A stretch of 62,431 bases of DNA, filler included, from Dugesia japonica (Eukaryota): assembly GCA_001938525.1 (NCBI GenBank). It is 6 parts of 6 records of this genome, joined end to end, with 100 filler letters (N's around TTAATTAATTAA, not from the genome) between each part and the next. Parts side by side here need not be neighbours in the genome. Positions count along the whole stretch, not along the records: positions 31,396 to 41,593 come from MQRL01547312.1; 5 more parts are not named here. One strand, 5' to 3'. The translations under genes were made by a program, and so were the position numbers. The notes beneath the pieces are model-generated. The model did not search any database. It was given only the letters and a program-made list of their open reading frames with translations, and was not told the DNA's origin. This document shows positions 13,213 through 51,542 of the stretch, piece after piece (position 1 is the first letter of the stretch; each line of letters begins with the position of its first letter).

Positions 13213-13312
13213 NNNNNNNNNNNNNNNNNNNNNNNNNNNNNNNNNNNNNNNNNNNNTTAATTAATTAANNNNNNNNNNNNNNNNNNNNNNNNNNNNNNNN
13301 NNNNNNNNNNNN
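13213..13312. other. Artificial contig linker (44N + TTAATTAATTAA + 44N)
   Basis: A six-frame stop linker, repeated identically five times in the window. Confidence 0.97.
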
Positions 13313-21774: not shown

Positions 21775-21794
21775 TTATTTCTAAATATTTAAAT

Positions 21795-22570
21795 TTAATA
21801 TTGATTAATAAAAATAAAAGTATTACCACCAGTTTTTCTTTTTCTTTCGATCTGACATTTGTGTTGTTTTCCAAACGCGAAGGCTAGAGACTGTAATTGT
21901 ATATCAAGCCTGATTTCGTTTATTTGTTCAGGACTTTTATAATCTAAGCCAATGTTTAAACCATTTGATATTTTTATTCTATTTTCTTCATAAAGCTCGT
22001 TTACTAAAGTTGGCGGATCAAGATTAAACAATTTTACCATATTATGCATTAGAAAACTTATGTTTTTTAATGAATCCATATTGAAATCTAGTTTTTTCAC
22101 GCTTTCTTCTTTTCTTAATAATACCAANNNNNNNNNNNNNNNNNNNNNNNNNNNNNNNNNNNNNNNNNNNNNNNNNNCTTCTTTTCTTAATAATACCAAA
22201 CTATCGAAAAATTGAATTTTCATTAAGGCGTGTAAAACAGCTTCTAGTATATTCTCCAACTTATGTCGATAGAGTAATACCTTATTATTTGAAATCTCCT
22301 CAAAAGCGTCCATGAACATATAGAGACTGTAAACATTTTTTCAAATTTCATGCTTTGTTGGCTTTACAATCGCTTAAGAAATCTATATAATTCAATCTTA
22401 TGTATTTATCCTCAGTATTTTGATTTAATGATGAAAGAAATTTTTGAATTTTGGATTGAGCCATTTCTTTTTTGTATTCTTTTTATATCTCTTTATTTTC
22501 CCGAATACAAATATCAATATTTTTCATCATTTCTTCTTGTTTCAATGATAATGCCTTTATTTTGGTCATA
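21795..22570 (-). pseudogene. Unknown helical protein near a Polinton terminus; upstream part interrupted by stops
   Basis: A 174-aa ORF whose internal N gap is an overlap artefact (LVLLRKE appears on both sides), preceded by a coding-like upstream frame MTKIKALSLKQEEMMKNID. Confidence 0.45.
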
Positions 22571-22734
22571 TTTTATTTAGGAAATCATGAATTTATAAAC
22601 ATGTCAATGTGTTTATATAAATGTATGTAATAAAAATAAATTAATCGGATTGGCTAAAAAATTGAAATAAATTTGATTGGATGTTAAAACCTACATATTT
22701 GAAATACAAATTAACTAAAATCATTTATTTTAAA

Positions 22735-23290
22735 ATGTGTTATAAATTTATTGGAAAATTAACAGATGTTGAAAACGATAATCAAAATGAAGAAGTTGAG
22801 CCAAATTTAGAATATGATGAAAAACAATAGCCTACAACGTCAGATGAAGAGGAAAAATATTTTAAAGCTACGGGTTATTTTTTTAACTGATTTAATATTT
22901 AAAAAATGATTGATTTAGAAAATATTGAATCTGATGTACAAATGATGGAAGAAACAGAGTTGTCGAAATAGACCTGCTAGAAAAATCTTCAAATACATTT
23001 GATAAAGGTTTGACTTAATTTCATTTAAATTATGTTATTTTGTTTTAGATTTGTTACTCGGACTTCTTTAGCCATGCTTTAAGGATAATATAATTTATTG
23101 TGCACCAGAATTGATTTGGTGCAACATAAAACAGATGACTGGAGTGGACATGAAAAGGTGTAGAACATATTCGTCGAATATCATAAAGAAGATATTATTT
23201 GTGAATATTGTTCTGGAAAGAAGAAAGATTTGAAGAGAAAATTTATGAACTCTATCTATCCTGAGTCTTATAAAAGACAATGTTAATAAC
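22735..23290 (+). pseudogene. Unknown acidic spliced gene, divergent from the previous one, decayed
   Basis: An E/D-rich frame (DVENDNQNEEVEPNLEYDE) with GT-AG introns at 22874-22918 and 23008-23048 and in-frame stops. Confidence 0.45.
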
Positions 23291-23389
23291 TTTATGTTAA
23301 TTAACTTAGTTTGTTATTAAATAAATGTTAATTTAAATTTACATTTATTTATTCTATATTATTGTATTAAATACCTTTTCTGGGATAAA

Positions 23390-23709
23390 TAATATTAAGT
23401 CGGCGCGGAAATTAATAATATTAAGTCTGCGCGAGGAGTAAGGGTTAGGTAATTATTAAACCTGTTTGAATGATAGTTGACATTGACCTAAAAATAGTTG
23501 TCATGGAAATTACCTTGACCTACTTTCATTTATCCTTGACTTACCTTTATTCGACCTTGAAATATTCCACCAGAATCGCGTATACGTAGCCATTTTGACC
23601 TTGAAAAAATTTACCACTAATCAGAATCGAGTATATGTAGCCACTTTGACCTAGAAAAATTTTCTACCTCTAGGGGGCGGGTGTCTACATGCGCTACTAT
23701 CTATCTACT
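23390..23709 (-). repeat. Polinton/Maverick-type terminus (right end) with TTGACC subterminal repeats
   Basis: Ends in TGCGCTACTATCTATCTACT (reverse complement AGTAGATAGATAGTAGCGCA). It contains many TTGAC(C/T/A) units and a duplicated AGAATCG.GTATA.GTAGCCA.TTTGACCT.GAAAAA block. Confidence 0.7.
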
Positions 23710-24540: not shown

Positions 24541-25419
24541 TAATCATCTTGGGTGTATAACTGAGTTTTTTTGGATTTAGTATTTATTTTTTAATTTATT
24601 AATTAATTTAAATTGATAAATAACAAATCAAACAATGTAAAGGTAATGATTTGTTATTTATTAATTTAAATTAATTAATAAATTAATTTTTTCAGTATTT
24701 TCAATCCAGTCAATAATCAAACAACAGTCAGATTGATAGATTTTTTATTGAAATAATTATTAATTTGAAAATATGTTTGGTTTTGTACTTCATCTTTTAT
24801 TTTAATATTTCTCGGAGACTCCCAAATAAAATACTTGTTTTTTCTTTATAACTTTTTATGTATAAGATTTTAACTGTGTTTTTCGTACTAACCGTAAAAT
24901 TTCCTATCGAATAGTATTAATTTCTATAAATTTTGAGTTACTTTTGAAAGTTTTGAAAAATGTCACCAAATCCTGGAGGGCGGCTGTACATATTCGTTAT
25001 GGAGCATTTTTACCGAAACCATATATATTTTTTTTGTACAGTCACTTTTTCCTCCTGACTAAAATAATACTAAATTATAGTCGACAGCAGTTCTCATAGT
25101 TTTGACATTTTTTCACCAAAAAACCTCATTTATTTCAACTTTGACGATTTTAGGTTACCATATTTGAAATCAGCGAACAATTCTTTATCGAATAGACACT
25201 TTGTTTACATATTTGTGAAGGAAAATATTTTCAAAAAAGTTTTATTTGAGAAAAATAATCGCTGTAAAATTCTCTGCAGTTTAGTATAAAAATCTTTGAA
25301 ATCTCAGATATAGAACATATTTTTTCAAAAACTTAGACTGATCATCCAGATTCCCATAAAAATTGATTTAAAAAATTTTAAATTTCATATTATTTAAACA
25401 ACATGATCGGTTTGCCCGG

Positions 25420-25786
25420 ATTTCTATAAAAAATTCCCATAAAAATTTTTTTCCACCTAAAAAAGCTTGAAAACATATTGCTGCTAAAAAACCTAAAAAA
25501 AATTCCTAACTAAATACACAGGGAAATATAAAAACAGTTAAAACTATTACATAAAATTTCACCGATGAAATTAATCTCATGACATAATTTGTGTGCAAAA
25601 AAATTTCCCATCTAAATACACAGGGAAATACGAAAACAGTAACGTAATAGTTATTTAATGATGCAATTTATAATGCAATTTTTAAATTCCCAACTAAATG
25701 CATTAGGATTACATTTCATTACATCACTTACCTGGCGGGGTGGTTACCAAATGTGTGCTGTTCTCGTGCGCTACTATCTATCTACT
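25420..25786 (-). repeat. Second Polinton-type terminus (right end)
   Basis: Shares the 22-mer TGCGCTACTATCTATCTACTAT with 23690-23711 and carries a duplicated AAATACACAGGGAAATA..AAAACAGT. Confidence 0.65.
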
Positions 25787-26061: not shown

Positions 26062-26197
26062 GAGTATATTATCCTAATTTCGGCACTATTCCTGTTTCAA
26101 TGGTTTGTCCACAATGTCATACACAAATTGCTACCGTTGTCACATTTTCTAATGGAACGTTAACATATCTTCTTGTTATGGGAATATTCTTTTTTGG
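26062..26197 (+). CDS. LITAF: LITAF-domain protein, single exon (N-terminal CxxC plus hydrophobic segment)
   Basis: Bounded by TTTAG| and |GTAACT; translates as VYYPNFGTIPVSMVCPQCHTQIATVVTFSNGTLTYLLVMGIFFFG. Confidence 0.8.
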
Positions 26198-26949
26198 GTA
26201 ACTTAATTTTTTTTACTGTGCTTAATTGATTTTCTTATTAAATATCAATTTTTTGCAGGTAAAAATGTGTTACATTTAGTAAAAAAAATAGTNTATAATT
26301 ATGTTTTAATTATAAATTTTGTATTAAATATTTGGAACTTGCTTAATATTTGTTAATATATTCATTTTACCGCTGAAAATAACATAAATACTATACATTT
26401 TTTTGTAAAAAAGCTTTAGTTTTTTTCACCGTTTTTTGGCGCCAAAGTGTTCACAAGCTGTCAACTGCTCATGAACTTAAATAATATTTGACAATTTTTT
26501 TAAAAGAAAATACGGAAAAATAAAAATATGAAAAATGCAAATATCCTTTAAAAAAATAGTTGAGAATTAATTAATTTATAAGGTAAAATAAAAAAATTCA
26601 TTTCTTAAAATTCTTAATTTTGATAATAAAATTCCAAATGTTAGCAACGAACTAAATAAATATTTGTCAGATAAAAGTTATGAGAACATAAATTTATTTA
26701 ATAAATATGAAGTAGCTTGAATAATTAAAAAAAATTTATATGATTAGTCAAATTATTCTTAAATCTGTGTTCCGCCATTTGACGATTTTGGTTACATAAT
26801 AAAAACATTATGAACCCAATTTTCCAAAATTGAAAATAAGAATAGGTATGAAATGTTATTTATTTAAATGTTTATATGGCGCTGAAATAGTGGTTTACAA
26901 CCAATGCCGCAGTATGGTTTGAAGGAGAAAAATTATTAATCAATTTTTA

Positions 26950-28150
26950 CAATTATTTAGATGCTCGAATGAGAGGTAGAAGGACACGATTCAGGATTAG
27001 TTTTGTTAAACATAAATGAAATAATGTTGTCAATAATAGAGTATATTTCAACAGTTGATGGTGCATATACGAAACTAACCTTTACTTCCAAATCTAAATA
27101 TAATTCATTAAATTATGATAGAAAATGTTTCTTCTGGTGTTTACTGGAATCTCTCAGATTAAATAAAGAAAAACATTAAAGAAATGAAAAAGTTACAAAT
27201 CGTCTATTAAATTCTATGAGTTATATAGATAATTTAATGAGGATTATTAAATGAATTACCCAATTTTAATCGACTATATTAAAACGTTTAAGTTGAAAAA
27301 TAATATTTTAGTGAATGTTTTTCAAATTATTAAATATAAAGTAGTTACTCCACTAATAAAGAACATTTGAAATGGGAAATTAGCGAAGTAGATGAAATTC
27401 ATTGTACAAATATCTTTTGTGATGAAGAGGAAGATAATAAATCTCTAGAATTAAAAAGTTATTATGCTTTATGTACAGATGTGAGTACATTTTTTAAAAA
27501 GAAAATAAATAGACATAGAGTATATTCATGTTTAAATTGTTTGATAGCCTTTTCTTATGAAGAAGGGTTATAAAAACATCGGAGTTTATGTTTAAAACAT
27601 GATTCCATGAGAAATAAATTTCATAAAGACGAATATTTCAGATATAATAAATTTAATTTTAAAAACAAAACGCTTTTTGTAATAATGGCAGATTTTGAGG
27701 CATATAGTATAAAAGAACCATAAAATTTGAAAATTTAGAAAAAAAAAGAACCAAAAATGACAAATAATCTGAAATCCAGTGCAGAACTAGTTCGAGACCA
27801 CGATCATTATTCTGGTGAATTTCATGAATTGGTATGAAAAAATTGTGATTTAAACTCAGAATAAATTTGTGCTTTTATACTTTCATAACGGAAGTAAATA
27901 TGATATTCATCTAATATTTTTCGAACTTTTTTAAAATTAAATATAAAACCACTCGCTAAATTAGATGAAGAGTGTATTTCTTCACAGATTGGGTGTATAA
28001 GAATCCTCGACTCTTTTAGATAACCAATATCATCATTAGAACAGTTAGGTTTAATTTTAAAACCAGAACACTGCGAGATTTTAGACTAAACAGTTTATTG
28101 ATTAATAATAAACCAACGAAGGAAATTTACCCATATAACTATATTTGGAG
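26950..28150 (+). pseudogene. Polinton protein-primed DNA polymerase B remnant A (N-terminal and exonuclease part)
   Basis: KCFFWCL, YSCLNCL....EGL*KH..LC, FVIMADFEA, VRDHDHYSGEF (EndoVII-like insert), FHNGSKYDIHLI and IRILDSFR. Confidence 0.85.
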
Positions 28151-28199
28151 AGAAAAGAAGAAGCATTTGTAAGAATTAATGTAAGAAGCTAGGATGTTA

Positions 28200-31100
28200 T
28201 ATGATAAAAGATTATACAAGAAAATATTTAAAATAAATTTTAAATATTCAAGAAGATGGTGATTGAAAGAATTTCTAAATAGTAGATCAGTTATATGAAG
28301 AGGATATAGTATTACAAAATTTTATTGATAAAGAAAACATGGTTTTACAAAATTTTATTGATGAAGAAGAAGCGCTCGTACTTGGCTCTCTAAATGTTGT
28401 CGATAACTCAATAAATGAATCAGAAATTACAAATGATGAACTGCCATATCATAAAAGATCCGATCAGCATGGTGTTCTAATTGTCTCAACGGATTTAGAG
28501 ACGAAAATGCATTTGTGAAATATGAGCCAATTTGCAGGAGAATANAAACAGGCACCACTCCGTACACCATGGCAATCTAAATGAAATTGGAGTTTTCGGA
28601 TTACTACAAAACAATAACTCCGCCATATGTAATATATGCTGATTTTGGATCAGTATTGGCACTTGATGAGAAATATTTTAATAAACATTTATTCGTTTAA
28701 ACTGGACTGTTGTTGGTGTAAGGATTTGTGTTTAAGAAGATTTTTTAATTTTTATAATTTGCTTTGATATTATTTTATTTTTGAGGTTTTGTAGTATTTG
28801 TTATAAAAGTTGGATAAAGGTTGTTGTTTAAATATTACTGTTAGGTAATTCTTCAATTGGTAATTCATCTTCAAAATCACAACTATTTTTAGACATAATT
28901 TATTTCAGTTCACACAGCTATATCAATTATATAATTATATGAGAACAGAACCATATAAATATTTATCTACAATTTAATCGATTTCTTTTGGCTGAANNNN
29001 NNNNNNNNNNNNNNNNNNNNNNNNNNNNNNNNNNNNNNNNNNNNNNNNNNNNNNNNNNNNNNNNNNNNNNNNNNNNNNNNNNNNNNNNNNNNNNNNNNNN
29101 NNNNNNNNNNNNNNNNNNNNNNNNNNNNNNNNNNNNNNNNNTTTAATATTGGAATTTATATTTACGTTATTTAATATTAATAATAATTAAAGTATAATTT
29201 TTGTAGTTTAGAATTTTGCTGGAATTTAATATTCAGATCCAAGGAATTTTTATAAGAAGAAAGAAACAATCAATTTATTTTGTATGAACAAACCTTTGGA
29301 AACTAATTATAATTTTGTTATTGATACTACCCCTAACAGTTAGTAAACAATATTACCAATCAAGTTAAATACATCCAATTTATTTGAAATGACTATATAT
29401 ATGATGTTTTAAAACTGTATTGAAGAAATCAAGAATAATATTGTTTGCCCTTATTATATGAAAAAAGGAGATAACAAGTTATAATTAATCGTAGCACAAT
29501 AAATGGCATTTACAGCAGCTACTATATTTCATTTTTGTAAAAAGAATTAAAAAGTCCTGTTTGAGATCATGATCACTTTACATGATAGTATATGAGCGCA
29601 ACATGTAATGAATGCAAATTAAGCCGAAGAATAAATATACAACTTCATGTTGTATTTCATAATCTCAAAAGATATGATCTTCATCATATTCTCAACTATA
29701 ACTTGAATGAATTCACATAATGGAACTTCTCCTGTATTCCAACAATATGTGAGAAGTTCCTATGTTTGATTCACCAATCAAAAATCACAGTAAGATTCAT
29801 CGATAGTTATCAATTTATAATTTTATCATTGAACGCAGCAGTAATATCATTAAAATCGTTACCTTTGACGATAAATGAATTCAAAGATAGATGAAAAGCA
29901 ATGTAAAAGGAAATGTTTACATATAATCATGCTACCAGTTATTAAGTTCTGGAAGAAACAGTAAGCATGCCACCGAGATGGGATGAAGTAAATAAGGAGG
30001 AATATAAAATTTTATAATTACAATTATTGTGAGAATAATTGTTGGACTTAACCATTGATCGGATTTGAAATTTCATTNNNNNNNNNNNNNNNNNNNNNNN
30101 NNNNNNNNNNNNNNNNNNNNNNNNNNNNNNNNNNNNNNNNNAATTTTCGACAATAGTCTTCTTCAGGAACATGTTGGCTTCTTGAGATATTCAATGCAAT
30201 AGATCTTTGAATATAAAAAATCATTAAAAATTTGGGAAATAACTGGATATAATAACCTATTGGACTATATGATGGTGTATTTAAAGTTGAATGTTCCTGT
30301 TAGTTGAATCCTTTATAAGTTTCAGGCAAAGTTATGGGTGCATAGTAAAATGGAGCCATTAACATTCTTTGTATTGATGTCATTAAATAAGCCAATTGAA
30401 CTGTTGACTGATAATGATATGTATACTTTTTTCAAAAAATACCAAATTACTTTATATAGATATTAATAATCTATATGATTTGGTACTGAGTCAGAAGTTG
30501 CCGAAGCAGTATTGAATGAATGTAAATATTCAGACCTCAACTCGTTATCTTATAGATACACATTGGATGTGGATATGAATATACCGGCAAATTTTTAAGA
30601 TTACCTGAACATCTTTCAGTAGCAGCGGAACATCAAAGTCCTCCAAACTCAAAAGTGAAAAATATATTACTTACTCATTACCCGAAAATAAATTATGTTA
30701 TACAATGGAGGTTGATTCAAATATGTTTGCAATTAAGTGTACAGGTGACTAATATTCACAGAGTAGTGAAATTTGGTCAGGATACAATATTTAAAAATGA
30801 TATCAATAGAAATACAAAATTGAGATCAAAGTGTCAAACCGAGTAGGAGAAAATTATTTTAGATTATTAAACAACTGCTTGTATGGAAAAACAATAGAAA
30901 ATTTGAAAAGGGGAATAAATTTACGACTGTGCTATTCAGCGAAGAAATTAATAATTTATACTTCAAATGCTGGATTCAGGAAATGAATAAAAATCGCAGA
31001 TAATCTGATAGCTGTTCTTTCTACTAAGGAAATCGTTTGTTTGTATCATCCCAGCTACATTGGGCTAACTGCATTTGACCTCTCAAAATTAAGAATTTAC

Positions 31101-31260
31101 CAATTATGGTACATTGAGTTGGGAATGTATAGGAAAGAAATATATTGTAAAATAAATATAGTAGCCGGCAATACGGATAGTTTTTTCTGGAGGTTGTAGA
31201 TATTAGTTTGGAAAAGCTAATCGGATTGATGATGATGGATCAGATATTGAACACCTCGAA
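28200..31260 (+). pseudogene. Polinton pPolB remnant B (acidic leader, exonuclease, palm)
   Basis: PYVIYADF, DHDHFT..TCNEC, VFHNLKRYDLHHI, FIDSYQF, YIDINNLY...LSQKLP, LLNNCLYGKTIENL and AGNTDSF, with many stops. Confidence 0.88.
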
Positions 31261-31295
31261 TTATTTAATATAAATTTATATATTATTTTAATATA

Positions 31296-31395
31296 NNNNN
31301 NNNNNNNNNNNNNNNNNNNNNNNNNNNNNNNNNNNNNNNTTAATTAATTAANNNNNNNNNNNNNNNNNNNNNNNNNNNNNNNNNNNNNNNNNNNN
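31296..31395. other. Artificial contig linker
   Basis: 44N-TTAATTAATTAA-44N. Confidence 0.97.
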
Positions 31396-31469
31396 GAAAT
31401 TCCCAGGCACATGATTTTCAGTGTTTGTGTGTTGAATATTTATTGCATTTATGTATCAAAAATTCCCAG
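31396..31469 (+). repeat. 74-bp exact direct copy of 32623-32696 (Polinton subterminal repeat unit)
   Basis: GAAATTCCCAGGCACATG...AAAAATTCCCAG is identical at both positions. Confidence 0.9.
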
Positions 31470-33091
31470 TATGTGTGTGTGTGGGATTGTAATACAATTT
31501 GCATTTCTTGTCTAAACATTTTCTGGCATAGCTGTTTTGTCGGAACTTAATTGATCTTAATTAAGTATCATTATAGAAACTTTATGAATATATTATAAAA
31601 ATATCATTATTATATCATTATAACAGAAAAATAGAATCAAAAATCAAATTATTTAGGAGGGAAAGAAGTAATAAACGATAAATAAACAACAATATAATTT
31701 CGAGCAAAACTGTGAAAAAATATATATATTTAAGGAAAGCATGGAGAGTATCAAATGTATTATCCTAAAAGTAAAGATTCGGAAATAGCTGGTAACTATG
31801 GAATAACTATTTGGGCGTTAAATAAAACATTAAAAGAACTACACTTAAAAGCGCTATGAAAATATATGTAAATTTCATACCACACAAGATATATCAGACT
31901 TTTTTTGTTTAGAGCCACAGAAGGAAATTTTACAAGTTTGGAGAGAAGTGGGATAGTAGCGCACAAGCACACTTTGAACCCCAGAAGGGGGCTTACAATC
32001 GTACTATGATTTTTGTGCTTGTTTTATTTTTCTAAGATTTTTTGGATCAAAATTTTTTAGATTGGATTAAATTTTTTTTTTCATCGGATCAGAAATTTTT
32101 GATCCTGATAGTGTGTTTATTTTTAATTTTTAAAATTATTGTGTGTTTGAGTTGCTAAGGGGGTTAATTTAAAGTAGGTCAAGTTGAGTTTGTGTGTGTG
32201 TGAAAGAGTAGAAATAGATTTGAGGGAGGTCTGGGGATCTTGGAAATAATTTTTTTTGGGAGTTTTATGATATGGTTGTGGTTGGACAAAAATTCTGTCT
32301 ATATATTGTCTAAGGGACTTATATGGTAGGATGGATGGTTTGTACTAAAAGTAAGATAGCGCACAAGCACAGGTGTATGAGTTATTCTGGGGTGATTTTT
32401 TGGGAGGTTGTAGGTTGGACTTTTGTGGTTGATGAGTTGTTGGAAAGCCAATGTGATCGGGAGGATTTTGGATGTCGATTGTGCTTTAATTTCTGATTGG
32501 TTGTGGTTGAATTTGATTGGTTGGTGTTTGTAAGTAGTATAAGTGTGTTAAAAAAGATTTTCGGGAGGGGGAAAAGTGTATGGGTTGAAAGAGAATTAAT
32601 TATCGGATTTTAAAAATCAATAGAAATTCCCAGGCACATGATTTTCAGTGTTTGTGTGTTGAATATTTATTGCATTTATGTATCAAAAATTCCCAGGCAC
32701 GTGATTTTCAGTGTATGTGTGTTGCATTCGTGTTGCATCTGAGTTGCATACCTATTGCATTTATAATTAAAAACTATTTACAATAAGAGACTCTTATTAT
32801 TTCACTACTTATAAAGAAAATCATCGACTAGTCATAACAATTAAAAGGAATATTAACAAATCCTATCAATTTTAGCAAATATTAATCAATAGGAACTCAC
32901 AAATAACGAGTATGTGTGTATCGTAACTAGTATATAAGCAAAGATTTACATAAAATTAATTACTTTTACAACTCAAAGTGCAAGAAAATCAACTAACTAA
33001 GGAAAACGTGTCAACAATAACTGTATAACATGTTGAAAATTTATAGATTTCCATAATTACAAGTTGTTCTTTTTGTAGACTTCAATTATCT

Positions 33092-33420
33092 ATGACTTCA
33101 AAGTAATTATTTTTTATTTCATTTTATAAATTAATATGTTATTTTAGAAACCATTTTCAATTAAAAGATTCAAATTTAGTCTGCTTCTATCGGGAATTCA
33201 TGAGAAAGATAGAAATATATTGGAAGCTATGTTCGCTAGATTACGCCGTCAAATTGAAGTTAATGAGGCCATTTATAATGCCTTTAAAGAACGAGATGAA
33301 AACAATTATGAAGATGGCAGTCAATGGATGATTCAAGTGGAGATTAAAGGCTTCGAGAAATCAATTAATTCGGTAGGAGTTATATGGAAAATAAAAAATG
33401 TTGAAAAGAAGAAGAATTAA
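33092..33420 (+). CDS. Small unknown Polinton accessory gene with a probable 45-bp intron (33103-33147)
   Basis: ATG ACT TCA AA|GTAATT...TTTTAG|A continues in an open frame and overlaps ORF 33220-33420 in another frame. Confidence 0.4.
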
Positions 33421-33566
33421 TTTGAACTTATTACATGATTTTAATGAATTTGCTGTTATTTAATAAATATTTATTAATGTTGATTTGTTTTTTATTTAGT
33501 AAAAAGTTTTCTTTAACTTTCAATTATAAACCATGCACTAAAATATGAATTAATTAAAGAAAAAAG

Positions 33567-34196
33567 ATAGAAAGATTAAGAAATGATGCAGTCTATCAAA
33601 TTGTTGGGCCTAGCGGTAGTGGGAAAACATTGTTTATATGTCAATTATTGTAATCAAAGTTATTCAAGTCTAAATTTAAAAACATATACTGACATAGAGG
33701 CGCTGTTGAGGAGCATGAATTGACTAAATCTGAATTTTGTAATATTAAAATGAAAATTATAAATGGTTTTGATAAAAATTGGAACAAAAGATTAAGACCA
33801 GGTGATGTTATTGTTGTTGATGATCTGTATCAGGAGGCAAATAAAGAAAATTATTTCAATAATTTATTCACAAATATATAGAGACATCGTAATGTGACTG
33901 TTATATTTATTACTCAAAACCTATGTCATCAAAGGGGTAGTCATAGAACTCGCAATTTAAACGTGCAATATTTGGGTATATTCAAAAATCCTAGAAATCA
34001 AACTGTTGTTGATTTTCTAGCAAGGCAAGCATATCCCAATAACAGACAATTTCTCATTGAATCATTTCAAGATGCAACCGGAACACCACATGGATATCTA
34101 TTTCTAAACTTTACACAACAATGTCCAGATGATTATAGGGTGAGAACAGATATATTCAACCCTAATGGTATTACAGAATATAAACAAAATAGGTAA
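33567..34196 (+). pseudogene. A32/FtsK-like DNA packaging ATPase
   Basis: Walker A VGPSGSGKT and Walker B VIVVDDL, plus RHRNVTVIFITQNL, FKNPRN and HGYLFLNF, with premature stops. Confidence 0.93.
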
Positions 34197-34209
34197 TTTT
34201 TATTATATT

Positions 34210-34430
34210 ATGTAAAATAGCAAAGTTTAAGAAAATTGTAGTTGATTCAGTTACTGATGGTGATGTTGTTAAACAACGAAAAAAGCTGGATTTGAAGAAA
34301 AAGACAAAATAATCTTATAAGAAAAATTCCCATAAGAAACCATCTCATCGGAAAACGCATGCAAATAAGAAATAAAAATTGAAAAAGTTTAAAAAAACTT
34401 ACAAAAAGTAACAGAAAGAAACTNGAATTG
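34210..34430 (+). pseudogene. Small Lys/Arg-rich ORF, possible DNA-condensing core protein
   Basis: KQRKKLDLKKKTK*SYKKNSHKKPSHRKTHANKK, located directly after the ATPase. Confidence 0.4.
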
Positions 34431-34493
34431 ATGAATGGAAAATGTATATCATTATAAACAATTAACTGGTATGTCTTTGTTATTGAAATACAA

Positions 34494-34812
34494 ATGAAAT
34501 TAGAAAAACATATTCCGTTTTTTACTTCTTTGATTAAATCAAAATCAATGAGAACGAGAATTTTAGAATCGTTTCCACAATATATTACAGATGATTTACT
34601 TTAAATTATTATAAATATTGTTCGTGGTAATGTAAATTTGAGCGAAGCTGAAAAGGAAAGATTGAAAAAACAAAGAAAACCTTACTATTGCTAATAATTA
34701 TAAAACATAGAGATTGATGAGGAAAGTTATACGAGATAATCAAGGTGGTGGATTTATAGCAGCATTACTACCAATTACATTATCAGCATTAGGCTTAACT
34801 CATTTCAAATAA
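34494..34812 (+). pseudogene. Conserved small Polinton protein with C-terminal QGGG|FIAALLP motif
   Basis: MKLEKHIPFF..IINIVRGNVNL..ERLKKQ..NQGGGFIAALLPITLSALG, lying between ATPase and integrase; one stop and a frameshift. Confidence 0.75.
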
Positions 34813-34905
34813 ACAATTTACGCTTTTGACCAATATATTAATAAACAATAGGCGGATTGCAATCATTACCTAATTTTGACTTAAAATTTGCATCGAATTG
34901 TTGTA

Positions 34906-35922
34906 ATGGGGGAACTAAAGATAATATTGACGGATCCAAAAAACCCAGAAGGTTTTCGAGGCGTAGAAAAATTAATGAAAGCAGCTCAAAAAACGAAAAG
35001 AAAGACGAAAGAGTGGTTATCTGAACAGTTAGCGTACAGCATGAACAAACCAATTTCCAACAAAATCATACAAAACATATGGTAATGATGATTTTTGGCA
35101 AATGGATCTAATGAAGATGATTCCATATTCAAAAATTAATAAAGGGTACAAGTATATTTTGACATGTATNNNNNNNNNNNNNNNNNNNNNNNNNNNNNNN
35201 NCTGTTAAATCAAAATCTGCTAATGATATGGAACCAGCAATCAAGTCAATGTTTAAAAATGGACATCCAGATAATATACAAACGGATTTGGGTAAGGAAT
35301 TTTACAATTCCAAGGTGAAAAAACTTATAAATCATCTATGTATAAGCCATTATAGTGTATTCTCTGAGTATAAAGCTGCACATGTAGAGAGATTTATTGA
35401 GAGATGCATTGAAAAGATGCTTTGTACATGTTGATAAAAAGACTTGGATAAATGTTTTACCGAAGCTTATTCATAGTTATAATCATTCTGGTCATAAGGG
35501 ATAAATGGAGCAAGACCGGTTGATGTAAGTACAAACAATCAATTAAAGTTATGGTTATCGCGAAAACAACCAAAAGCAAATAAAAAATCAAAGTATAAAG
35601 TTGGCGATCATGTGAGAATCTCAAACATATTAGCTTCACAATTTATCAAGAATTTCAAAAGTAATTGGGGTGATGAAGTTTGTCGAATAACTAAAATCAA
35701 CATGAAACAAAATCCGGTCATATATGTTATTAAAGATTATGAGGATAATATCGTGTAAGGAAAATTCTATGAGCAAGAATTACACGTCATTCCACCACCA
35801 GAGATATAAAGAATAGAAACAAAAATCAAATCAAAAAATCAAAAAAGAATAAACATTACTATGTAAAGTGGCATGGATACAAAAAACCAGGTTGGATATT
35901 AGCATCACAAATAGTCAATTAG
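34906..35922 (+). pseudogene. Retroviral-like (rve) integrase with C-terminal chromo-like domain
   Basis: DPKNPEGFRG, WQMDL, NKGYKYILTC, IQTDLGKEFYN, KAAHVERF, KYKVGDHVRIS, KFYEQEL and YYVKWHGY...W. Confidence 0.93.
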
Positions 35923-35935
35923 GAAGAAATATCAG

Positions 35936-36992
35936 ATGAAATCGAGTAATTNCTATACACTGTTACCGAGTAATAGCTGTCCACTTATTCATCCTGAGAA
36001 TAATGCTAGTAAATTCATTGTTGAGCTACAAAATACAATTTATATGGATGGTAGTTGGGAAGTTGCTATATTCTCTATTTCCTATATTATCTATTTCCTG
36101 TATAAAACAAGTCGAAAATTGAATACATGACTGCAAAAAATATATTGAATGAAATAACTGAAACAATAAATAACAAGGAAAAAACACTTAGTGTTGATCA
36201 AAAAAAAAATTGAAATATTTGAAAAGAATCTCATAAGATTTTATTGTGATTTTCCATATGTTTTCATATTTTAAGATGCAAATATTGTACACTTAGGATT
36301 TAAATCTAACAAATTATCAAAAGAATTTGGTCATATCTAAGTAAACTTTGCAAATGATGACACAGTACAAAAAGTAAAAATTAAAGTAGCTTATACAGTG
36401 GTGAATTATCACACTTTTCAGTTTAAATATGATATCTACATATCAGAATTGGAACAATTAAGTAAATATTTGACAGAAAATTGCACTCAAATATTTAAGA
36501 AATGTCTTATAAATGCAGATACATATTTTGAATTCGAGCTACAAGATGATGTCAAAAAAGTTTTATTTGATGTCTTGACAAGAACATTAGGATTAGACAA
36601 ACAACAATATTCTCCCATAGATATGAAGGGAGGCGAGTTCAAAGCTATTACCAAATCGAAAATAATGAAGTTACATTAGCAAATGTTCATCTATAGTAAC
36701 CTTGTTGAATCTATAATTGTAAGTGATGTTAGTGTACCTTTGTTGAAATTAATATGGATAGAAAAANNNNNNNNNNNNNNNNNNNNNNNNNNNNNNNNNN
36801 NNNNNNNNNNNNNNNNCTGATGAAGTAGTACAAATAATAATTGAGAATCCAATGTATTTACCTATTGCAACATCATGTATAAACAATATAGAAATTAATA
36901 TCCGCGATGATAATATAAAATTAATCAAATTTCCAAAACATTCAAAAACCCATTTAACTTTACATTTCAGAAAACTAAGTAATGAATCCTGA
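35936..36992 (+). pseudogene. Minor capsid (penton) protein
   Basis: N-terminal LPSNS...PENNASKFIVEL....MDGSWEVA and C-terminal MFIYSNLVESIIVSDVSVPLLK, NPMYLPI, IEINIRDD and LTLHFR. Confidence 0.85.
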
Positions 36993-37430
36993 TATTTTTT
37001 CAATGTATAGTACTAGTCAAGCAGATGGAGAATTGCCTTACTTTCTTGGAAAACAGTATGGATCCGGTTGGTTGAGAACAATAGGGAGATTTGCTTTGCC
37101 TATTCTTAAACGTATTGGTTCATTTGGTATGAAAACAATTCAGGATGTACTAGCTAATGACGGAAAAATACTACCAACATTGAAATCTAATGCATTAGCT
37201 GAGCTTGGAAATGTTATGTCATCATTATCTAGTAGAGTAACCAGTATGATTCCAAAAGTAGCAAACATATTACCGCAAAGTATAACTAACAAAATACCAT
37301 CTGAAATAACTAATATGCTATCAAATCAAGTCAAGACACCACAAAATAGTTGAAAACGTAAGAAATCTCATGGATCACGTATAAACAAACGAATGAGAGG
37401 TCATGGAACAATATTTGACAAATGGTTTGC
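36982..37430 (+). pseudogene. Polinton protein between minor and major capsid genes (QYGSG|W amphipathic, candidate membrane-lytic protein)
   Basis: YSTSQADGELPYFLGKQYGSGWLRTIGRFALPILK; a basic tail KRKK..RINKR..TIF continues beyond the stop at 37351. Confidence 0.75.
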
Positions 37431-38598
37431 GGTAAAACTGAATTATTTATTTTTGATCGACCATCTCCTCAAGCTGTTTTGAAGATGTCTTTACTATGAA
37501 TTCAATTTCTGAATCACAAAGTGACATGGAGTTTTTTATAATTGGATCTCAAACCGAATATTTGGATTTGAATGATATTTTATTGTATATTAAAGTGAAG
37601 GTGGTTGATAAGACTGGTAAAGATTTGACTGACACTCATGATGCAGTTCCAAGTAATTATATGCTGCATACTATTTTCAAGGATGTACTTCTTTCGTTTA
37701 ATAATTTTAAAATTGAAGGTGGAAATGGATCTTATCTTCACAAAGCATTGATTGAAACTATAATAAAGTATAATGGTGATAGTAAGAAATNTCTGTCATG
37801 CAACAATGGGATATAAATCAGAAGCAGATGGGAAAAAGTCTATTAAAATATCAAAACAATTGTCTCTATTCGGTTCATTGCAATTAGATTTCATGCATCA
37901 ACCAAAATACCTTATTCCTGTTGTTAATGTTAAGATTTGTTTGTAATCTGCAGCTAATGAACCTAAATATGTATTACTAGATGCAAAATTAATGGTTAGG
38001 CGAGTATGAGTTGAACCCTCAGTACTAGCTTCTCGTCAAATGGGACTAAAAATCAAAATTCTGATTATCCAATAAGAACCAAAGAAATCGTTGCATTTGC
38101 AATTAGTAAAGATAGTTCATCGTTTTATAAGGAACAAATCTTTGGTGATCGTTGATTACCTAGCCTTAATTTGGTTACATTCCAAAGTGGTTAACAATAT
38201 AATGGTAGCTATAAAATATCGAGTTCAACATTTCAAAATCTAGATGTTGTTTCTGCTTCCTTGACGAAAAACACTGATTATCGAGAAATATATACTCAAA
38301 ATTTTACAAACGATAATTATACCGCAACATATATGCAATCTATAGTACGAAATATGGGATATTTGGATAAGAATGTGAATTGTTGAATAACACTTCAAGA
38401 TTTTAAGGATAATTATCCATTCTTTAAATTTGTTCTTGCTCCATATTTTGATATAAATCAGAGTCAATTACTTCAACAAGGAAATTTGAGATTGGATATC
38501 AAGTTTGTCAAGGCTTTAACTACTCGGCATATGTTATAATTTATGGAGTATTTGAAAAAGAAATTCAGATTAAAGAAAACGGGACAGTATTAGTGTAA
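37422..38598 (+). pseudogene. Major capsid protein (double jelly-roll, hexon-like)
   Basis: MVCGKTELFIF..PSPQ, EFFI....EYLDLNDILLYIKVKV, NYMLHTIF, SYLHKALIETI, LDFMHQPKYLIP and GNLRLDIKF, with frameshifts and stops. Confidence 0.92.
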
Positions 38599-38626
38599 AC
38601 AATATGTTGTGTAATTAGTACATATT

Positions 38627-39008
38627 ATGAAGTAAGTGTTTTTATATTAATGAGTTTTATTTTAATAGTACTATTCAGATTGATCTGATTCCATCAAAGT
38701 GGCTTGGATCAGCATGGTTAGGTGTTTATACGTTAGATAAACTTCCAAATTATATTTCAGTAAACTATAACTTAATTGTCAATACTCATACATCAAATCT
38801 AGGTGGAGAACATTGGATAGTTGTTTACAATAAATTTGCACATATACTTGTATTCGATCCATTAGCATTTTATTATCCATCAATGTTGGTGTCACACTTA
38901 TCGAAAATATCAAAGCCAATAGTCTACAATAAAATCCGATATCAAGATCCATTTACAACTATATGTGGTCAACACTGTTTATTATGGTTGAAAAAACATT
39001 GTACTTGA
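38627..39008 (+). CDS. Adenain-like capsid-maturation cysteine protease, spliced (38627-38631 + 38669-39008), 114 aa, intact
   Basis: MN|TIQID..WLGVYTLDKLP..IVNTHTSNLGGEHWIVV..VFDPL..RYQDPFTTICGQHCLLWL. Catalytic His, Asp and Cys and the oxyanion Gln are all present, with a 37-bp GTAAGT..TAATAG intron. Confidence 0.9.
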
Positions 39009-39371
39009 AAATATTTATTTTTTCTTGTTGTAAAAAAAATAAATGTCTTTTATTGAAATGAAATCTTTGTTATTTATTAAAACTAAGAATAAAAAGAATA
39101 AAATAACAACATTTAGTAATAAAATATTTGTAAGTAAATTAATTAATTAATAAATATTAATATAACTATTAATACATGTTTTTATTATTATTTTGACATG
39201 TTTTATTATCAAAAAATTGAAATTGACTTAAAAGACCACAACGTAATATATCTGCAATCTTTTAAATTAATTTGGCATTTTAAAATACACACATACTCAA
39301 ATTTGATTGGTNAGATTTGAAAACCTTGGTAAAAGTTATTATTATTCATCACAATTTCAAATTATTTTTAG

Positions 39372-40296
39372 AAAACCAGTCAACAATTCAAGAGAGCTTA
39401 AAGTAATTTATTATTAATAATAACATTATTAACTTTTATTTTTAGATTATTATGAATAATCATAAACAAAATCAAAGAAGGTTTATATCACGTATGAATA
39501 CCGTAAGATTGTTATTATATATTATTAATATATTAATTATGTAATTAGAAATTTGACATGGAGTTGAAGGATCTGGGATGTTTCACGTAAGTTTTTTTAT
39601 TATGTTTTTTAAATATTTTTTCATAAGTTAAATTTTATTAAATTTTAAAAACTATTATTAAGAACAAATATTCTATGTCGTGTTCTATGTGTGTTCCATG
39701 ATATAATATTATGAAGAAATGCTCTGTTTATTTAAATGAAAACGTTCTATTCTTTTATCATTTTTCTGAGAAAATTGCATCGCTAATATGCGTTTTATAA
39801 GGAAATTACATCACCAATATGTTTTATTTTGGAAATTTGCATCGCNNATATGTTTTCTATAGACAAATTGCAACGCTAATATGTTTTTTATAGAAGAATT
39901 GCATCGCTAATATGATTTTTAATGGAAAATTGTCTAACCAATGTTTTTTTATCGAAAAATGCCCTAGCTAATATGTTGATTTATAGAAAAAAATGTCCTA
40001 GCTAATATGTTCTTTATATAAAAGAAATATGCTTTTATCATTTTACTATGAAGTATCCTATGCTTTTATAAAGAAAAATGTTATTAAAATCACTATGTTA
40101 TTATTAAATTATTATTAAAATTGTAATTATATTATTAAATAATTTTAGAAAATTGTCAATTATACAACCATTGCGCAAGTGCGAGTCATAATGATGACTG
40201 CCATAGTATCATGGAAAGATACTATGTCCAACGGTTTTATGGAAAAAAATATTGTGTGTCGTAATTGTAAGGTATTAGGTTTAGGTGACTACTAAA
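39372..40296 (+). pseudogene. Multi-exon unknown accessory gene between protease and pPolB
   Basis: GT-AG introns at 39403-39445, 39503-39548 and 39587-40148. The frame stays open across all three junctions (..MNNHKQNQRRFISRMNT|KFDMELKDLGCFT|KLSIIQPLRKCES*) and is followed by a decayed Cys-containing tail. Confidence 0.55.
39771..40020 (+). repeat. Minisatellite of about 8 units of about 30-32 bp (AAATTGCATCGCTAATATGTTTT..)
   Basis: Tandem degenerate units without unique spacers, located in the predicted long intron. Confidence 0.85.
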
Positions 40297-40500
40297 TATT
40301 TTATAAGATACATAAGAAACACTTGTCATGTTCTAGTACAAGTAAAAAGAATATATTAAAATCAATATTAGAAAGGCAGATGAANNNNNNNNNNNNNNNN
40401 NNNNNNNNNNNNNNNNNNNNNNNNNNNNAAGAAATAACAGTTAAAGATGAACCTATTGAAATAATTGTTATTGAAGATGACATTAAAGAAATAACAATCA

Positions 40501-41593
40501 ATGGATGAACTTGCTGAAATAATTGAATATGTTGTTGAAGAAATCATCAATTTAGAACCGGAAGAAGAAACAGCAAATATTGTACAAGAAAAAGCAATCA
40601 ATATTAAATCTGAAATAATTGATGAACTCGATGAAGATATTGTGTTTCGTGAGTTCATGGATGCAGAAGCGGAAAATAATCCAGTTGGTGGATCACCAAA
40701 TTTAACTGTGGATGACGGAGTTATTATAGAATCGGATTTGTATCGTTGTGATAGGATTCTTAAAATAGATGTTTCAAGATGGAATCGTCGTGAAATAATG
40801 TTACCAGAAGCAATAGTTACCAAATTATTTCAGACAATAGAAGAAATGAAACAAGATAAAAATTTAATTTGGGGTGCATGTCGAATTTAAAAGGATAACA
40901 ACAACTACTGATGGTGAGGAAACGGAGTTTAAAACCTGTAGAATGTCAAATAGAGTCGTTGCATTAACTGATAACTTTTTTGAAGATGGAATCAACCAAT
41001 TGAATGAGAAAATAACAATAAGAAGCAAACTAGACTCCAGTTGGATGTTGACCCGAATACTGGAAATTAATTTTAAGATCACAAAGGTTGTAGATATTTG
41101 TCGACTTTCGAGAAAAAGTTATATTCCAACACAGAAAGATTTAATTAAGAAAAAGGCTATTGTAGACGTTAAGAACGATGAAAATTACTGTTTTATTTAC
41201 AGTATTCTTGCTATCACCAAAAAAGATCAAGTTGGAGAAAGGAATAGAATCCGTGTAACATTATATACAAAATACATGTCGGAGCTTATTTTTGATGAGG
41301 AGGATATGCTAATAAAACTGATTGATATACCAGAGTTTGATAGGAATAATCCAGGACTATCCATCAATGTCCTATCATTTAACCAACAATCAGTGGAGGA
41401 TAAAGATGAAGCAGTCATGAAACATCTGAATTTGGATATAATACACCGATCAAAAGTGATAGAGGGAGAAAAAATCTATCTTTTATTACTTGAAAATGAC
41501 AATAAATTTCATTACACCGCAGTAATGTTTCTAAATCATCTAATGAACCAGGATAATAAAGGCCAGGGTGTTCGTATTCAATCAACATGCTGT
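40501..41593 (+). pseudogene. Acidic leader plus N-terminal region of protein-primed DNA polymerase B, cut by the contig end
   Basis: SYIPT..LIKKKAIVDVKNDENYCFIYSIL, IPEFDRNNPGLSINVL and IYLLLLE....FHYTAV; a frameshift near 40875 separates two ORFs. Confidence 0.9.
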
Positions 41594-41693
41594 NNNNNNN
41601 NNNNNNNNNNNNNNNNNNNNNNNNNNNNNNNNNNNNNTTAATTAATTAANNNNNNNNNNNNNNNNNNNNNNNNNNNNNNNNNNNNNNNNNNNN
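41594..41693. other. Artificial contig linker
   Basis: 44N-TTAATTAATTAA-44N. Confidence 0.97.
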
Positions 41694-50036: not shown

Positions 50037-51542
50037 TAATATATCGATTAATGCTTTCGTTGATTGATTTAAGCTGAAACTATTTTCTATTAAAAATGTC
50101 CAATCATATTTCATATAAAAATCTTCGAATTGATTTTTTATTTGGAAAATTTCTCTAATATCATTTTTACAATCCGATGCACTCATGTAATCAAAATCAG
50201 GATTTTCGTAATACAATTCAAAATAAAGTAGAAAATTACAAATTATGTCACAAATTTCTTCAAAGTAATTTGAAGTCCAATTCAAAATTACAATAATTTC
50301 ATCAGTATTTCTATAATTAAACAATAAAAATCTTTCAGTGAAAAATTTAAATGCATAAAATTTTAATTTAATTAAACAGAATTCTTTTCCCAAATTTGAA
50401 ATTGAAGAAGCCCAATTAAAATCCCCGAATTCAGTTTGATCATGATCACTTTCTTTTTTCGATTTCACTCGATAACAGAAAATTAGCAGTTTTACAAAGC
50501 TAAACAAAAACTCTTGATTATAAACAATCTTATCAATTAGATTTATTATATCATACAATAAATCACTAAGATTTTTATAAACAATATTTTTACAATTTCC
50601 AAATAAATAATCATTGGTTAAATTGATTTGTTTTTCTGAATTATGATTGCTACAAATTTCAATATTTACTTCTTCACTTCTTTTAGAATCTAATGGGCAG
50701 TTACCATGGAAAACCATGTATNNNNNNNNNNNNNNNNNNNNNNNNTTATGATTACAAGTTGTAAATTTTCCACTAATTTCTTTATCTACCGAATGTAAAC
50801 AAATCAAACATTGATCAATGTTTTTCAATTTATTATTCGTAATAAGAGCTTTATAAATTGAACGATTATTAATGGTATAGCAAATCATATATGCATTTAA
50901 TAATGGGAAAACTTTTCTTCTTATTTGATATTTGAGTTGGATTTTATCTTTGTCTTCTTTTAACCATAAATCCGAATCTAGATTGATATCATTTAATTCG
51001 AGAAAATGGTTCAATTCATTAATATTTTTATGAAACATTTGATAATTTTGTGCGTTTAATAAAAACATAGACGTTTTGACAAAGTGAAATAGTTTTTTAA
51101 AAATGCTAAACGGTTTGATTGCAAACTTCGAATTGGTTTCTTTGAATAAACGGATAAGTTTCAATAATTTTTTTTCTTCGTTTTTCTTTGTTAATTTCTT
51201 AAGAATTTTGTAATTTTCCGATAAAAATAATTGAGAATTATTGAAATTTCCAATTGATATGAAAAGATATTCCAACCAATCTCTATCAATTTTATTGATG
51301 ACTACTTTCTGACAATTTGACCAGTTTTCACATTGAAATTCAAAAACTGATTTTGTTACTTGTCGTTCAATTGAAAATTCATTGACAATTTCGATTTTCT
51401 CGAAATCAACTGGACATTTTTGATCGTTTGAAAACATGTTATTACAAATACAATTAAAACAAAACACATGATTACATTTGTTTACTGTTAAGTAGTTTTC
51501 ATTAATTAAAGTATCAAAGCACATAATACAAACGCGTTCCAT
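50037..51542 (-). CDS. Intronless protein of at least 500 aa with two RING-finger domains (putative E3 ligase); 3' end truncated
   Basis: CIMC..CNHVFCFNC..CPVD at the N terminus and CLIC..CNH[gap]..CPLD near residue 245, in a 1.5-kb frame with no stops. Confidence 0.85.

What the first reader, a model, noticed from the sequence alone, without database searches (positions are those of the whole stretch)
31944..41593. Near-complete endogenous Polinton/adintovirus with a full virion module
Seen: one strand carries terminus, ATPase, two small ORFs, integrase, minor capsid, an amphipathic ORF, major capsid, protease, a spliced ORF and pPolB, with tight or overlapping junctions. Established: this is the Polinton/Maverick gene set. 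Inference: it is the fossil of a virion-forming virus of this host, perhaps an undescribed lineage given its spliced genes and the polymerase placed co-directionally after the capsid block.
Basis: partly seen in the sequence, partly recalled or inferred. Interest (0 to 1): 0.72.

Follow-up and report, generated by a model that had tools for sequence, protein, structure and literature searches.

The report
Decayed Polinton with spliced protease gene
This is a broken, cut-off copy of a well-known kind of virus-like giant transposon (Polinton/Maverick) in an animal genome, ordinary except that its capsid-maturation protease gene seems to carry a short host-type intron that related elements share.

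Summary
The gene set is real. On the + strand, 31944-41593 carries a terminus, ATPase, two small ORFs, integrase, penton, amphipathic ORF, double-jelly-roll capsid, protease and the 5' third of pPolB. The virion block has the same order as an intact relative, L004. 'Near-complete' overstates it: the scaffold ends at an artificial linker, so all polymerase motifs and the right terminus are missing. Most genes carry stops or frameshifts. It is one dead copy of a very large family. A polymerase on the same strand is already described (PMC5803895, PMC8097293), so that is no novelty.

The protease gene has a two-codon first exon followed by a 37-nt GT-AG intron (38632-38668). The same intron position occurs in 3 of 4 relatives whose DNA spans the junction; the distant L004 is intronless. 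Shuffles passed in 1-14 of 20,000. No RNA junction was seen. The 'spliced ORF' before pPolB has only weak support.

Verdict: a Beta-like adintovirus/Polinton fossil, a modest variant of a known kind. Host and Repbase identity were not determined.

The parts
31296..31395 (.). Artificial scaffold linker (N44-12 nt-N44); left end of the 10,198-nt scaffold
   Evidence: five identical 100-nt linkers in the window
31396..31943 (.). Left flank; single-copy over 31487-31882; its first 74 nt are identical to the internal repeat 32623-32696
   Evidence: 531-nt contig, depth 10.5
31944..32620 (+). Left terminal region (putative TIR), starting with AG; strongly G-skewed (G 186, C 48); right boundary approximate
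   Evidence: depth rise; its partner TIR is not on the scaffold
32623..32759 (.). Two-copy 63-nt repeat
33079..33420 (+). ORF-A, function unknown; 90-aa exon 33148-33420 behind an intron-like GT-AG stretch 33103-33147; no start found
   Evidence: 28 of 300 shuffles reach 1 pair; no homologue; fold uninformative, pLDDT 59.7
33564..34196 (+). A32/FtsK-type packaging ATPase, 3 in-frame stops; start not identified
   Evidence: (51% to L004)
34202..34460 (+). Small lysine-rich ORF, broken; sits where PM lies in vertebrate Mavericks
   Evidence: translation; no homologue shown
34494..34812 (+). PZ/GasderminX-position ORF ending in a pX-like Q-G-G-G-F motif; broken (my scripts label it 'PW')
   Evidence: weak match to the L004 ORF (E 0.004); that ORF has a weak Adeno_PX match, E 0.045; naming by position
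34906..35922 (+). rve integrase with chromodomain-like tail; frame changes, 7 stops in the main aligned piece, one N gap
35936..36992 (+). Minor capsid (penton); stops, frame changes, one N gap
   Evidence: ends resemble P-1_CPB/P-XT/P-SP pentons by eye
36982..37428 (+). PW/Cupiennin-position amphipathic ORF with basic tail; one stop at 37351-37353; end approximate, overlaps the capsid start (my scripts label it 'PZ')
   Evidence: (40% to L004)
37422..38598 (+). Double-jelly-roll major capsid protein, in five frame pieces with stops
   Evidence: (pieces 43-81% to P0002)
38627..39008 (+). Adenain-type maturation protease: exon 1 38627-38631, exon 2 38669-39008, the latter without a stop
38632..38668 (+). 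37-nt GT-AG intron in the protease gene; same position in L001, L002 and L003 (43 nt each), absent in L004
39256..39660 (+). Candidate multi-exon ORF-B (intron-like 39329-39371 and 39403-39445; further donors at 39503 and 39587); unproven, limits approximate
   Evidence: no match to pPolB relatives
39756..40028 (.). 31/34-nt tandem repeats upstream of pPolB
40149..41593 (+). 5' third of protein-primed PolB: Cys/His-rich N-terminus, acidic part, then terminal-protein/vOTU-like region with Cys and His motifs kept; frame changes; cut by the scaffold end before any endonuclease, exonuclease or polymerase motif
   Evidence: TP-vOTU layout from PMC11161782, assigned by motif, not by fold
41594..41693 (.). 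Artificial scaffold linker that truncates the element

Best explanation
A mutationally dead, assembly-truncated genomic copy of a very high-copy Polinton/Maverick family (class Polintoviricetes; Beta-like adintovirus) in an AT-rich animal. SHOWN: the gene set and order, the decay, the truncation, the large family, and a GT-AG stretch at one position of the protease gene in this copy and in relatives. FROM ESTABLISHED KNOWLEDGE: in intact members the rve integrase inserts the linear DNA; pPolB is a terminal-protein/vOTU/exonuclease/polymerase precursor that primes replication at the termini; capsid, penton, ATPase and protease form and mature an icosahedral particle. INFERRED: transcripts are made in the nucleus and spliced by the host. 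The protease can be made only after removal of the 37-43-nt intron, which puts a two-codon first exon lying just behind the capsid stop in frame and gives a Met-Asn start like that of the intronless relative. This copy can make neither capsid nor integrase.
For: All seven core genes match intact L004 in the same virion-block order. A relative's capsid model (pLDDT 87.1) matches SGIV, PBCV-1 and virophage capsids; the best BFVD match is a Cotesia sesamiae Mombasa bracovirus protein, a record listed as a Polinton. Stops and frame changes are counted. Run X1 laid 42,165 contigs, 20,824 of them 90-95% alike, with summed depth 3e3-3e5 inside against one depth-10.5 contig on the flank. Intron: present in 4 of 5 DNA records that span the junction (window, L001, L002, L003; not L004); L001 and L002 are near-identical, so three independent cases. 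All are 3n+1 long and 9-19% GC; donors differ (GTAAGT, GTGAGT, GTAAGA); no in-frame ATG precedes the protease body. Shuffles pass in 14, 1 and 8 of 20,000. 6 of 17 protease hits have AT-rich read-through N-termini, judged by eye.
Against: No RNA junction: none of the 15 of 444 joints shown has GT-AG ends. Only 7 of 1486 laid RNA reads in X22 are at least 99% alike, and 82% run on into unlike sequence. P0240, which falls in the window's weakly supported protease subclade, starts directly with Met-Asn; it may be transcript-derived or may have lost the intron. The protease tree is largely unresolved (10 of 19 inner branches open), and intron state does not map to one clade. The shuffle pattern was set after seeing the data. 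rve and Peptidase_C5 scores of the window's own pieces are below Pfam cut-offs. TIR and TSD are untestable. The Beta assignment rests on domain absence and gene position, not on reference sequences.
Confidence: 0.85

Rival explanations
1. The scaffold is a mosaic of several copies of the same family, joined across its three internal N gaps, not one insertion.
For: Gaps at 35170-35201, 36767-36816 and 40385-40428; the family is highly repetitive and no contig shown spans the stretch; the scaffold's first 74 nt duplicate an internal repeat exactly.
Against: The genes continue in register across the gaps and keep L004's order; depth is family-level in every bin from 31736 on. A mosaic would not change the family-level reading.
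Confidence: 0.2
2. The protease is made by read-through or frameshift from the capsid gene (a 'Hexain' fusion), or from a non-ATG start, and the GT-AG stretch is just a spacer.
For: Potential Hexon-Adenain fusions are proposed in 10.1101/2024.03.25.586562 section 16; in L001 and L002 the protease body is in the capsid frame; no spliced read was seen.
Against: The frame offset differs between records (2, 0, 0, 2); L001 and L002 have two tandem stops, and stops intervene in the window and L003. Donor, acceptor and ATG-AA are kept while length and interior vary.
Confidence: 0.1
3. The family spread only as an intracellular transposon; the virion module is carried along but never made particles in this host.
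For: [quoted passage not shown] Very high copy number fits transposition. Three protein scans and one motif scan of viral contigs found nothing.
Against: 61 full-length relatives keep a ~407-aa capsid frame with 35 invariant columns and a confident fold, which implies selection on the capsid in the wider clade.
Confidence: 0.3
4. The scaffold comes from a contaminating free virus, not from host DNA.
For: It is a small unplaced scaffold with no host gene on it.
Against: Stops and frameshifts in most genes; a single-copy flank at ordinary depth in a run of the same organism; thousands of related contigs in that run.
Confidence: 0.02

Closest known systems
Polinton/Maverick elements (class Polintoviricetes; family Eupolintoviridae, formerly Adintoviridae per PMC12166617)
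   Same: pPolB, rve integrase with chromodomain-like tail, A32 ATPase, adenain protease, DJR capsid, penton one gene upstream of the capsid, AG-starting terminus, projected size about 13 kb.
   Different: This copy is broken and cut. Its protease gene carries an apparent spliceosomal intron, whereas intact vertebrate elements have intronless core genes (PMC8097293).
Beta adintoviruses (Terrapene class; Starrett et al. 2021, PMC8502044)
   Same: 11 of 12 pPolB relatives scanned lack the archetypal PF03175 match and 7 of 12 carry an endonuclease VII domain. No PLA2 match. ORFs sit in the Cupiennin and GasderminX positions. The penton ends resemble the turtle/frog/urchin type by eye.
   Different: Not compared with the reference sequences; P0091 does match PF03175 above cut-off; gasdermin homology was not shown; pPolB lies after the capsid block.
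Vertebrate Mavericks (Barreat and Katzourakis 2021, PMC8097293)
   Same: Module int-penton-PW-capsid-protease in the same order; ATPase followed by two small ORFs (PM, PZ positions).
   Different: Modules usually lie on opposite strands (same strand in Xenopus tropicalis); end motifs are (AGT)2 or (AG)3, whereas the two clean ends in this window start AGTAGA; no introns reported.
Sf Maverick 1 of Spodoptera frugiperda (Geisler 2018, PMC5803895)
   Same: Eight small tandem ORFs and the large polymerase ORF on one strand.
   Different: It has a PLA2 gene and a bidnavirus-like polymerase, i.e. Alpha class by Starrett's criteria.
Repbase Polinton-1_SM / Polinton-2_SM of Schmidtea mediterranea (rows of Table S1 in PMC4028283)
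   Same: Full virion module (capsid, penton, ATPase, protease), 14.9 and 15.9 kb. Relevant only if the host is a planarian, which is my guess and comes from no call.
   Different: Sequences not available here; identity and intron state untested.

Membership tests
Polinton/Maverick | Protein-primed family B polymerase | tested here: inconclusive
   Only the N-terminal third is on the scaffold. It matches 1255 proteins, among them full-length pPolBs with motifs A, B and C. The catalytic part is cut off.
Polinton/Maverick | rve integrase | tested here: met
   Pfam rve E 4e-5, below cut-off; E 1.8e-51 to the intact L004 integrase, which passes rve and Chromo. Broken in this copy.
Polinton/Maverick | A32/FtsK packaging ATPase | tested here: met
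   PF04665 33.3 bits against cut-off 22.8; 3 stops.
Polinton/Maverick | Adenovirus-type cysteine protease | tested here: met
   PF00770 E 0.0016, below cut-off; 43% to the L004 protease, which passes; 9 of 17 hits carry PF00770.
Polinton/Maverick | Double-jelly-roll major capsid | tested here: met
   Model of close relative P0002 matches DJR capsids, best PDB E 1e-16; window pieces are 43-81% identical to P0002.
Polinton/Maverick | Penton near the capsid gene | tested here: met
   One gene upstream of the capsid; matches the L004 ORF in the same position and, by eye, published PX ends. Fold not predicted.
Polinton/Maverick | Long terminal inverted repeats | not testable with these tools
   Right end missing; no genome held. 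A left end motif is shared with two other ends.
Polinton/Maverick | 6-bp target-site duplication | not testable with these tools
   Only one end is present; the flanks of the other two ends in the window do not match it.
Vertebrate-type Maverick | Intronless core genes | tested here: not met
   GT-AG intron in the protease gene of the window and of L001-L003; not confirmed by RNA.
Adintovirus (Starrett 2021) | OTU domain at the PolB N-terminus | tested here: inconclusive
   Cys (N-x-C-F-x-Y) and His (H-Y) motifs are present in the window piece and in several relatives; not tested by fold.
Beta adintovirus | Divergent PolB, not the PF03175 archetype | tested here: inconclusive
   1 of 12 relatives matches PF03175; L004 does not; the window's own catalytic region is absent.
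Beta adintovirus | Cupiennin and GasderminX genes, no PLA2X | tested here: inconclusive
   An amphipathic ORF and a pX-motif ORF lie in the expected positions; no PLA2 match; gasdermin homology not shown.
Beta adintovirus | Hexon clusters with the Terrapene reference | not testable with these tools
   No named adintovirus hexon among the 68 hits or the top 50 BFVD rows.
Virion-forming virus | Particles or encapsidated DNA | not testable with these tools
   Needs microscopy or nuclease-protected DNA sequencing.

The most novel reading that the evidence does not exclude
A broad, undescribed clade of invertebrate Mavericks (about 60 metagenomic capsids group with this copy and with L001-L003, apart from L004) makes its capsid-maturation protease only through a conserved, very short spliceosomal intron behind a two-codon exon. 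Virion maturation would then depend on, and might be timed by, the host spliceosome. Intron-blind annotation would have scored these proteases as truncated or missing. In this host the clade has expanded to a very large copy number.
Probability: 0.4. Interest if true: 0.6.

Novelty: new variant of a known kind. Interest (0 to 1): 0.38.

Why it matters
The fossil itself is ordinary. The conserved protease intron, if confirmed, matters in three ways. It contradicts the usual description of animal Maverick core genes as intronless. It gives a simple RNA marker (one junction) for late-gene expression in a family present in very many copies, which would help test whether animal Polintons ever enter a virion-making phase. 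It may explain some 'truncated' or 'absent' protease calls in published tables; that last point is speculation.

Tried and rejected
No genome is held, so intact copies, TIRs and TSDs could not be searched. Viral-contig scans with the capsid alignment, the pPolB piece, P0012 and the 20-nt end motif found nothing. ORF-A has no homologue of 49-158 aa and no Pfam match, only a weak unnamed PHROG (E 0.01); its single-sequence model (pLDDT 59.7) was too poor to search; it does not match L004's ORF in the same position. ORF-B does not match pPolB relatives. The lay showed only 15 of 444 joints and could not be repeated, so splicing is untested by RNA. I first took endonuclease VII as the mark of the Beta class; the parts of Starrett 2021 I read do not say so, and I dropped it as a criterion. 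The idea that the pPolB remains at 26900-31290 are the missing end of this element was rejected: they lie on another scaffold, contain two separate endonuclease-VII stretches and their own N-terminal pieces, and share no DNA similarity. The ends at 23709 and 25786 share only about 20 nt with this terminus and have other flanks. A PDB sequence search with the L004 pPolB found 0 matches. Cluster look-ups gave no organism names. No planarian term was found in the readable part of Starrett's cut supplement. Kapitonov and Jurka 2006 and Koonin et al. 2024 are not held.
Full report
Setting. The window is a string of small scaffolds joined by an identical 100-nt artificial linker at 13213, 21675, 31296, 41594 and 49937. 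The finding lies on one 10,198-nt scaffold (31396-41593) with three internal N gaps. Its right coordinate is simply the scaffold end. No genome is held. Other scaffolds carry a nitrilase gene, a LITAF exon and DDE, mariner and reverse-transcriptase remains. GC is about 25%. The host is therefore a eukaryote, most likely an AT-rich animal with short introns; no call named it, and 'planarian' is only my guess.

Gene content. Identities to L004: ATPase 51%, integrase 38%, penton 32-44%, amphipathic ORF 40%, capsid 27-54% by piece, protease 43%, pPolB 34%. L004 sits in a bacterial bin; I read it as a eukaryotic contaminant. The virion block order is the same as in L004, whose pPolB lies upstream on the other strand. 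The origins are thus concordant. Read with stops as X, the ATPase passes Pfam Pox_A32. The window's rve and Peptidase_C5 scores are below cut-off, while L004's orthologues pass. The capsid frame found 68 proteins, most of about 407 aa. A model of the closest, P0002 (pLDDT 87.1), matches iridovirus, PBCV-1 and virophage capsids and best a Cotesia bracovirus Maverick protein. The Atlas places it by clusters with PF21738 in 30% of members. By position, following PMC8097293 and the text of Starrett's Fig. S2, the amphipathic ORF is PW/Cupiennin and the ORF at 34494 is PZ/GasderminX; my scripts label these two the other way round.

Decay and truncation. The ATPase has 3 stops, the main integrase piece 7 plus frame changes, and the capsid falls into five frame pieces. 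The second protease exon has none. pPolB begins near 40150-40190 with a Cys/His-rich stretch and an acidic part that match relatives' N-termini. It stops at about residue 483 of the 1369-aa P0089, before any endonuclease, exonuclease or polymerase motif. About 2.7 kb and the right terminus are missing, so roughly three quarters of the element is present.

Terminus and copy number. A 12-nt motif near 31944 recurs at two element ends on the previous scaffold (3 matches against 0.12 expected); alignment puts the start at 31944. Laying four runs, DNA run X1 gave 42,165 contigs (4,733 at 99% or more, 11,036 at 95-99, 20,824 at 90-95, 5,572 under 90). Summed depth was 3e3-3e5 inside the element against one depth-10.5 contig on the flank. 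The tool warns that this is no copy number, but it shows a very large family from which this copy has drifted. RNA run X22 laid 1,486 reads from about a quarter of the run, on both strands, 7 of them at 99% or more; X21 laid 73. This fits low family-wide transcription and says nothing about this copy.

A same-strand polymerase is described: Sf Maverick 1 has eight small ORFs and the large ORF on one strand (PMC5803895), and Xenopus tropicalis has both modules on one strand (PMC8097293). The 'spliced ORF' before pPolB shows two 43-nt AT-rich GT-AG pairs on the + strand and none on the - strand; 7 of 300 shuffles reach two. ORF-A shows one (28 of 300 shuffles). The same scan found none in the terminus, flank or pPolB, and one in the 5.4-kb core (7 of 60 shuffles); it used a 40-nt minimum, so that one is not the protease intron. 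Neither ORF has a homologue. These remain plausible and unproven.

The protease intron. No ATG lies in frame before the protease body. Instead ATG-AA at 38627 is followed by GTAAGT, 37 nt of 16% GC, and an AG at 38667-38668; removing this stretch restores the frame and gives a Met-Asn start. L001, L002 and L003 (capsid 54-57% identical over the C-terminal piece) show the same ATG-AA, a GT[AG]AG donor and 43-nt introns. L004 (37%) is intronless and starts Met-Asn directly. That is 4 of 5 records spanning the junction; L001 and L002 are near-identical, L005 ends inside the capsid, and L006 matched only capsid residues 1-173 and was not examined further. Base shuffles of the 75 nt upstream pass the same test in 14, 1 and 8 of 20,000 (pattern set after seeing the data; L002 not run). 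Of 17 protease hits, 6 have AT-rich read-through N-termini, 6 start with Met at or next to the aligned first position, and 5 are uninformative (sorted by eye). Against: P0240 starts Met-Asn yet groups with the window, the protease tree leaves 10 of 19 branches open, and no GT-AG joint is among the 15 of 444 joints shown. A capsid-protease fusion (10.1101/2024.03.25.586562) fits poorly, because the frame offset varies and stops intervene. In a FastTree of one unbroken capsid frame (70 of 72 relatives kept; P0064 and P0068 left out), the window nests with P0002 and P0054. It shares a large group with L001-L003, and L004's group is set apart with support 1.0 under a midpoint root.

Mechanism. Shown: anatomy, decay, truncation, family size, and conserved splice-like signals. 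From the literature: integration by rve, terminal-protein priming with vOTU cleavage (PMC11161782), and capsid assembly genes (PMC4028283). Inferred: host splicing is needed to make the protease; intact members may have formed particles, though none has been observed for this class.

Comparison. It works like, and on the testable features is, a Polinton/Maverick. The Beta class is likely but untested against references: 1 of 12 pPolB relatives matches PF03175 and 7 of 12 match Endonuclease_7. Introns in this virus group are not unheard of: introners fill dinoflagellate eupolintoviruses (PMC12166617), group I introns occur in cryptophyte PLVs (PMC12220804), and three unchecked notes of this scan report introns in Maverick capsid or integrase genes. 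I found no report of a conserved protease intron in searches; most rows were seen only as listings, and Repbase and subscription papers were out of reach.

Papers seen. PMC8502044: parts 1-3 of 6 and the first part of a cut supplement; its Table S1 and protein files could not be seen and may bear on class and host. PMC4028283: passages, supplements S1, S3 (part 1 of 2) and S4; S5 unreadable. PMC8097293: passages and section 7. 10.1101/2024.03.25.586562: passages and section 16. Passages only: PMC11161782, 10.1101/2023.08.22.554363, PMC8532177, PMC5803895, PMC12220804, PMC6431247, PMC12166617, 10.64898/2025.12.11.693146 and 10.64898/2026.06.19.733378.

Verdict. A real but ordinary decayed Polinton with one feature of specialist interest, a probably spliced protease gene conserved among relatives. 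Interest 0.38; new variant of a known kind.

Noticed in passing
window 23690-23709 and 25767-25786 (- strand): Two clean Polinton-type right ends sharing a 20-nt terminal motif, 2 kb apart, with different interiors and flanks. The sequence left of 23709 (21775-23300) looks like short-exon accessory genes.
   Followed up: partly
window 26900-31290: Decayed pPolB remains of the same broad type, apparently two pieces, each with an endonuclease-VII-like stretch; the second runs through motifs B and C.
   Followed up: partly
window 15765-15995: A third small pPolB fragment on another scaffold.
   Followed up: no
L004 1-12666: An intact-looking Maverick in a bacterial metagenome bin (probable eukaryotic contaminant). 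It carries a TBP-like gene (PF00352, E 2.8e-10) after the protease, and its pPolB frame has no ATG start and splice-like signals upstream. L005 and L006 are similar contaminant fragments.
   Followed up: partly
L002 1463-1933; L003 after 1380; L004 10736-11215: A small ORF with an F-x-D-F-x-[GW]-F start follows the protease in relatives; the window has the candidate spliced ORF-B there instead.
   Followed up: no
window 20590-21674: Nitrilase (CN_hydrolase) gene whose last exon is much richer in GC than its first.
   Followed up: no
window 26064-26198: LITAF-like zinc-ribbon exon lying between the Polinton ends and the pPolB remains.
   Followed up: no
window 24591-24686: 40-nt near-perfect (98%) inverted repeat with a 16-nt loop.
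   Followed up: no
window 2384-3365, 11589-11924, 56556-59462: Decayed DDE_1 transposase, mariner transposase and an LTR-retrotransposon pol region.
   Followed up: no
window 50229-51703 (- strand): Long open frame with repeated RING-like Cys/His motifs; one part scanned, no convincing Pfam match.
   Followed up: no
window 40149: An acceptor-like AG at 40147-40148 directly precedes the Cys/His-rich pPolB start, and a strong donor lies at 39587. pPolB may have upstream exons across the tandem repeats, which would make ORF-B its 5' end; untested.
   Followed up: partly
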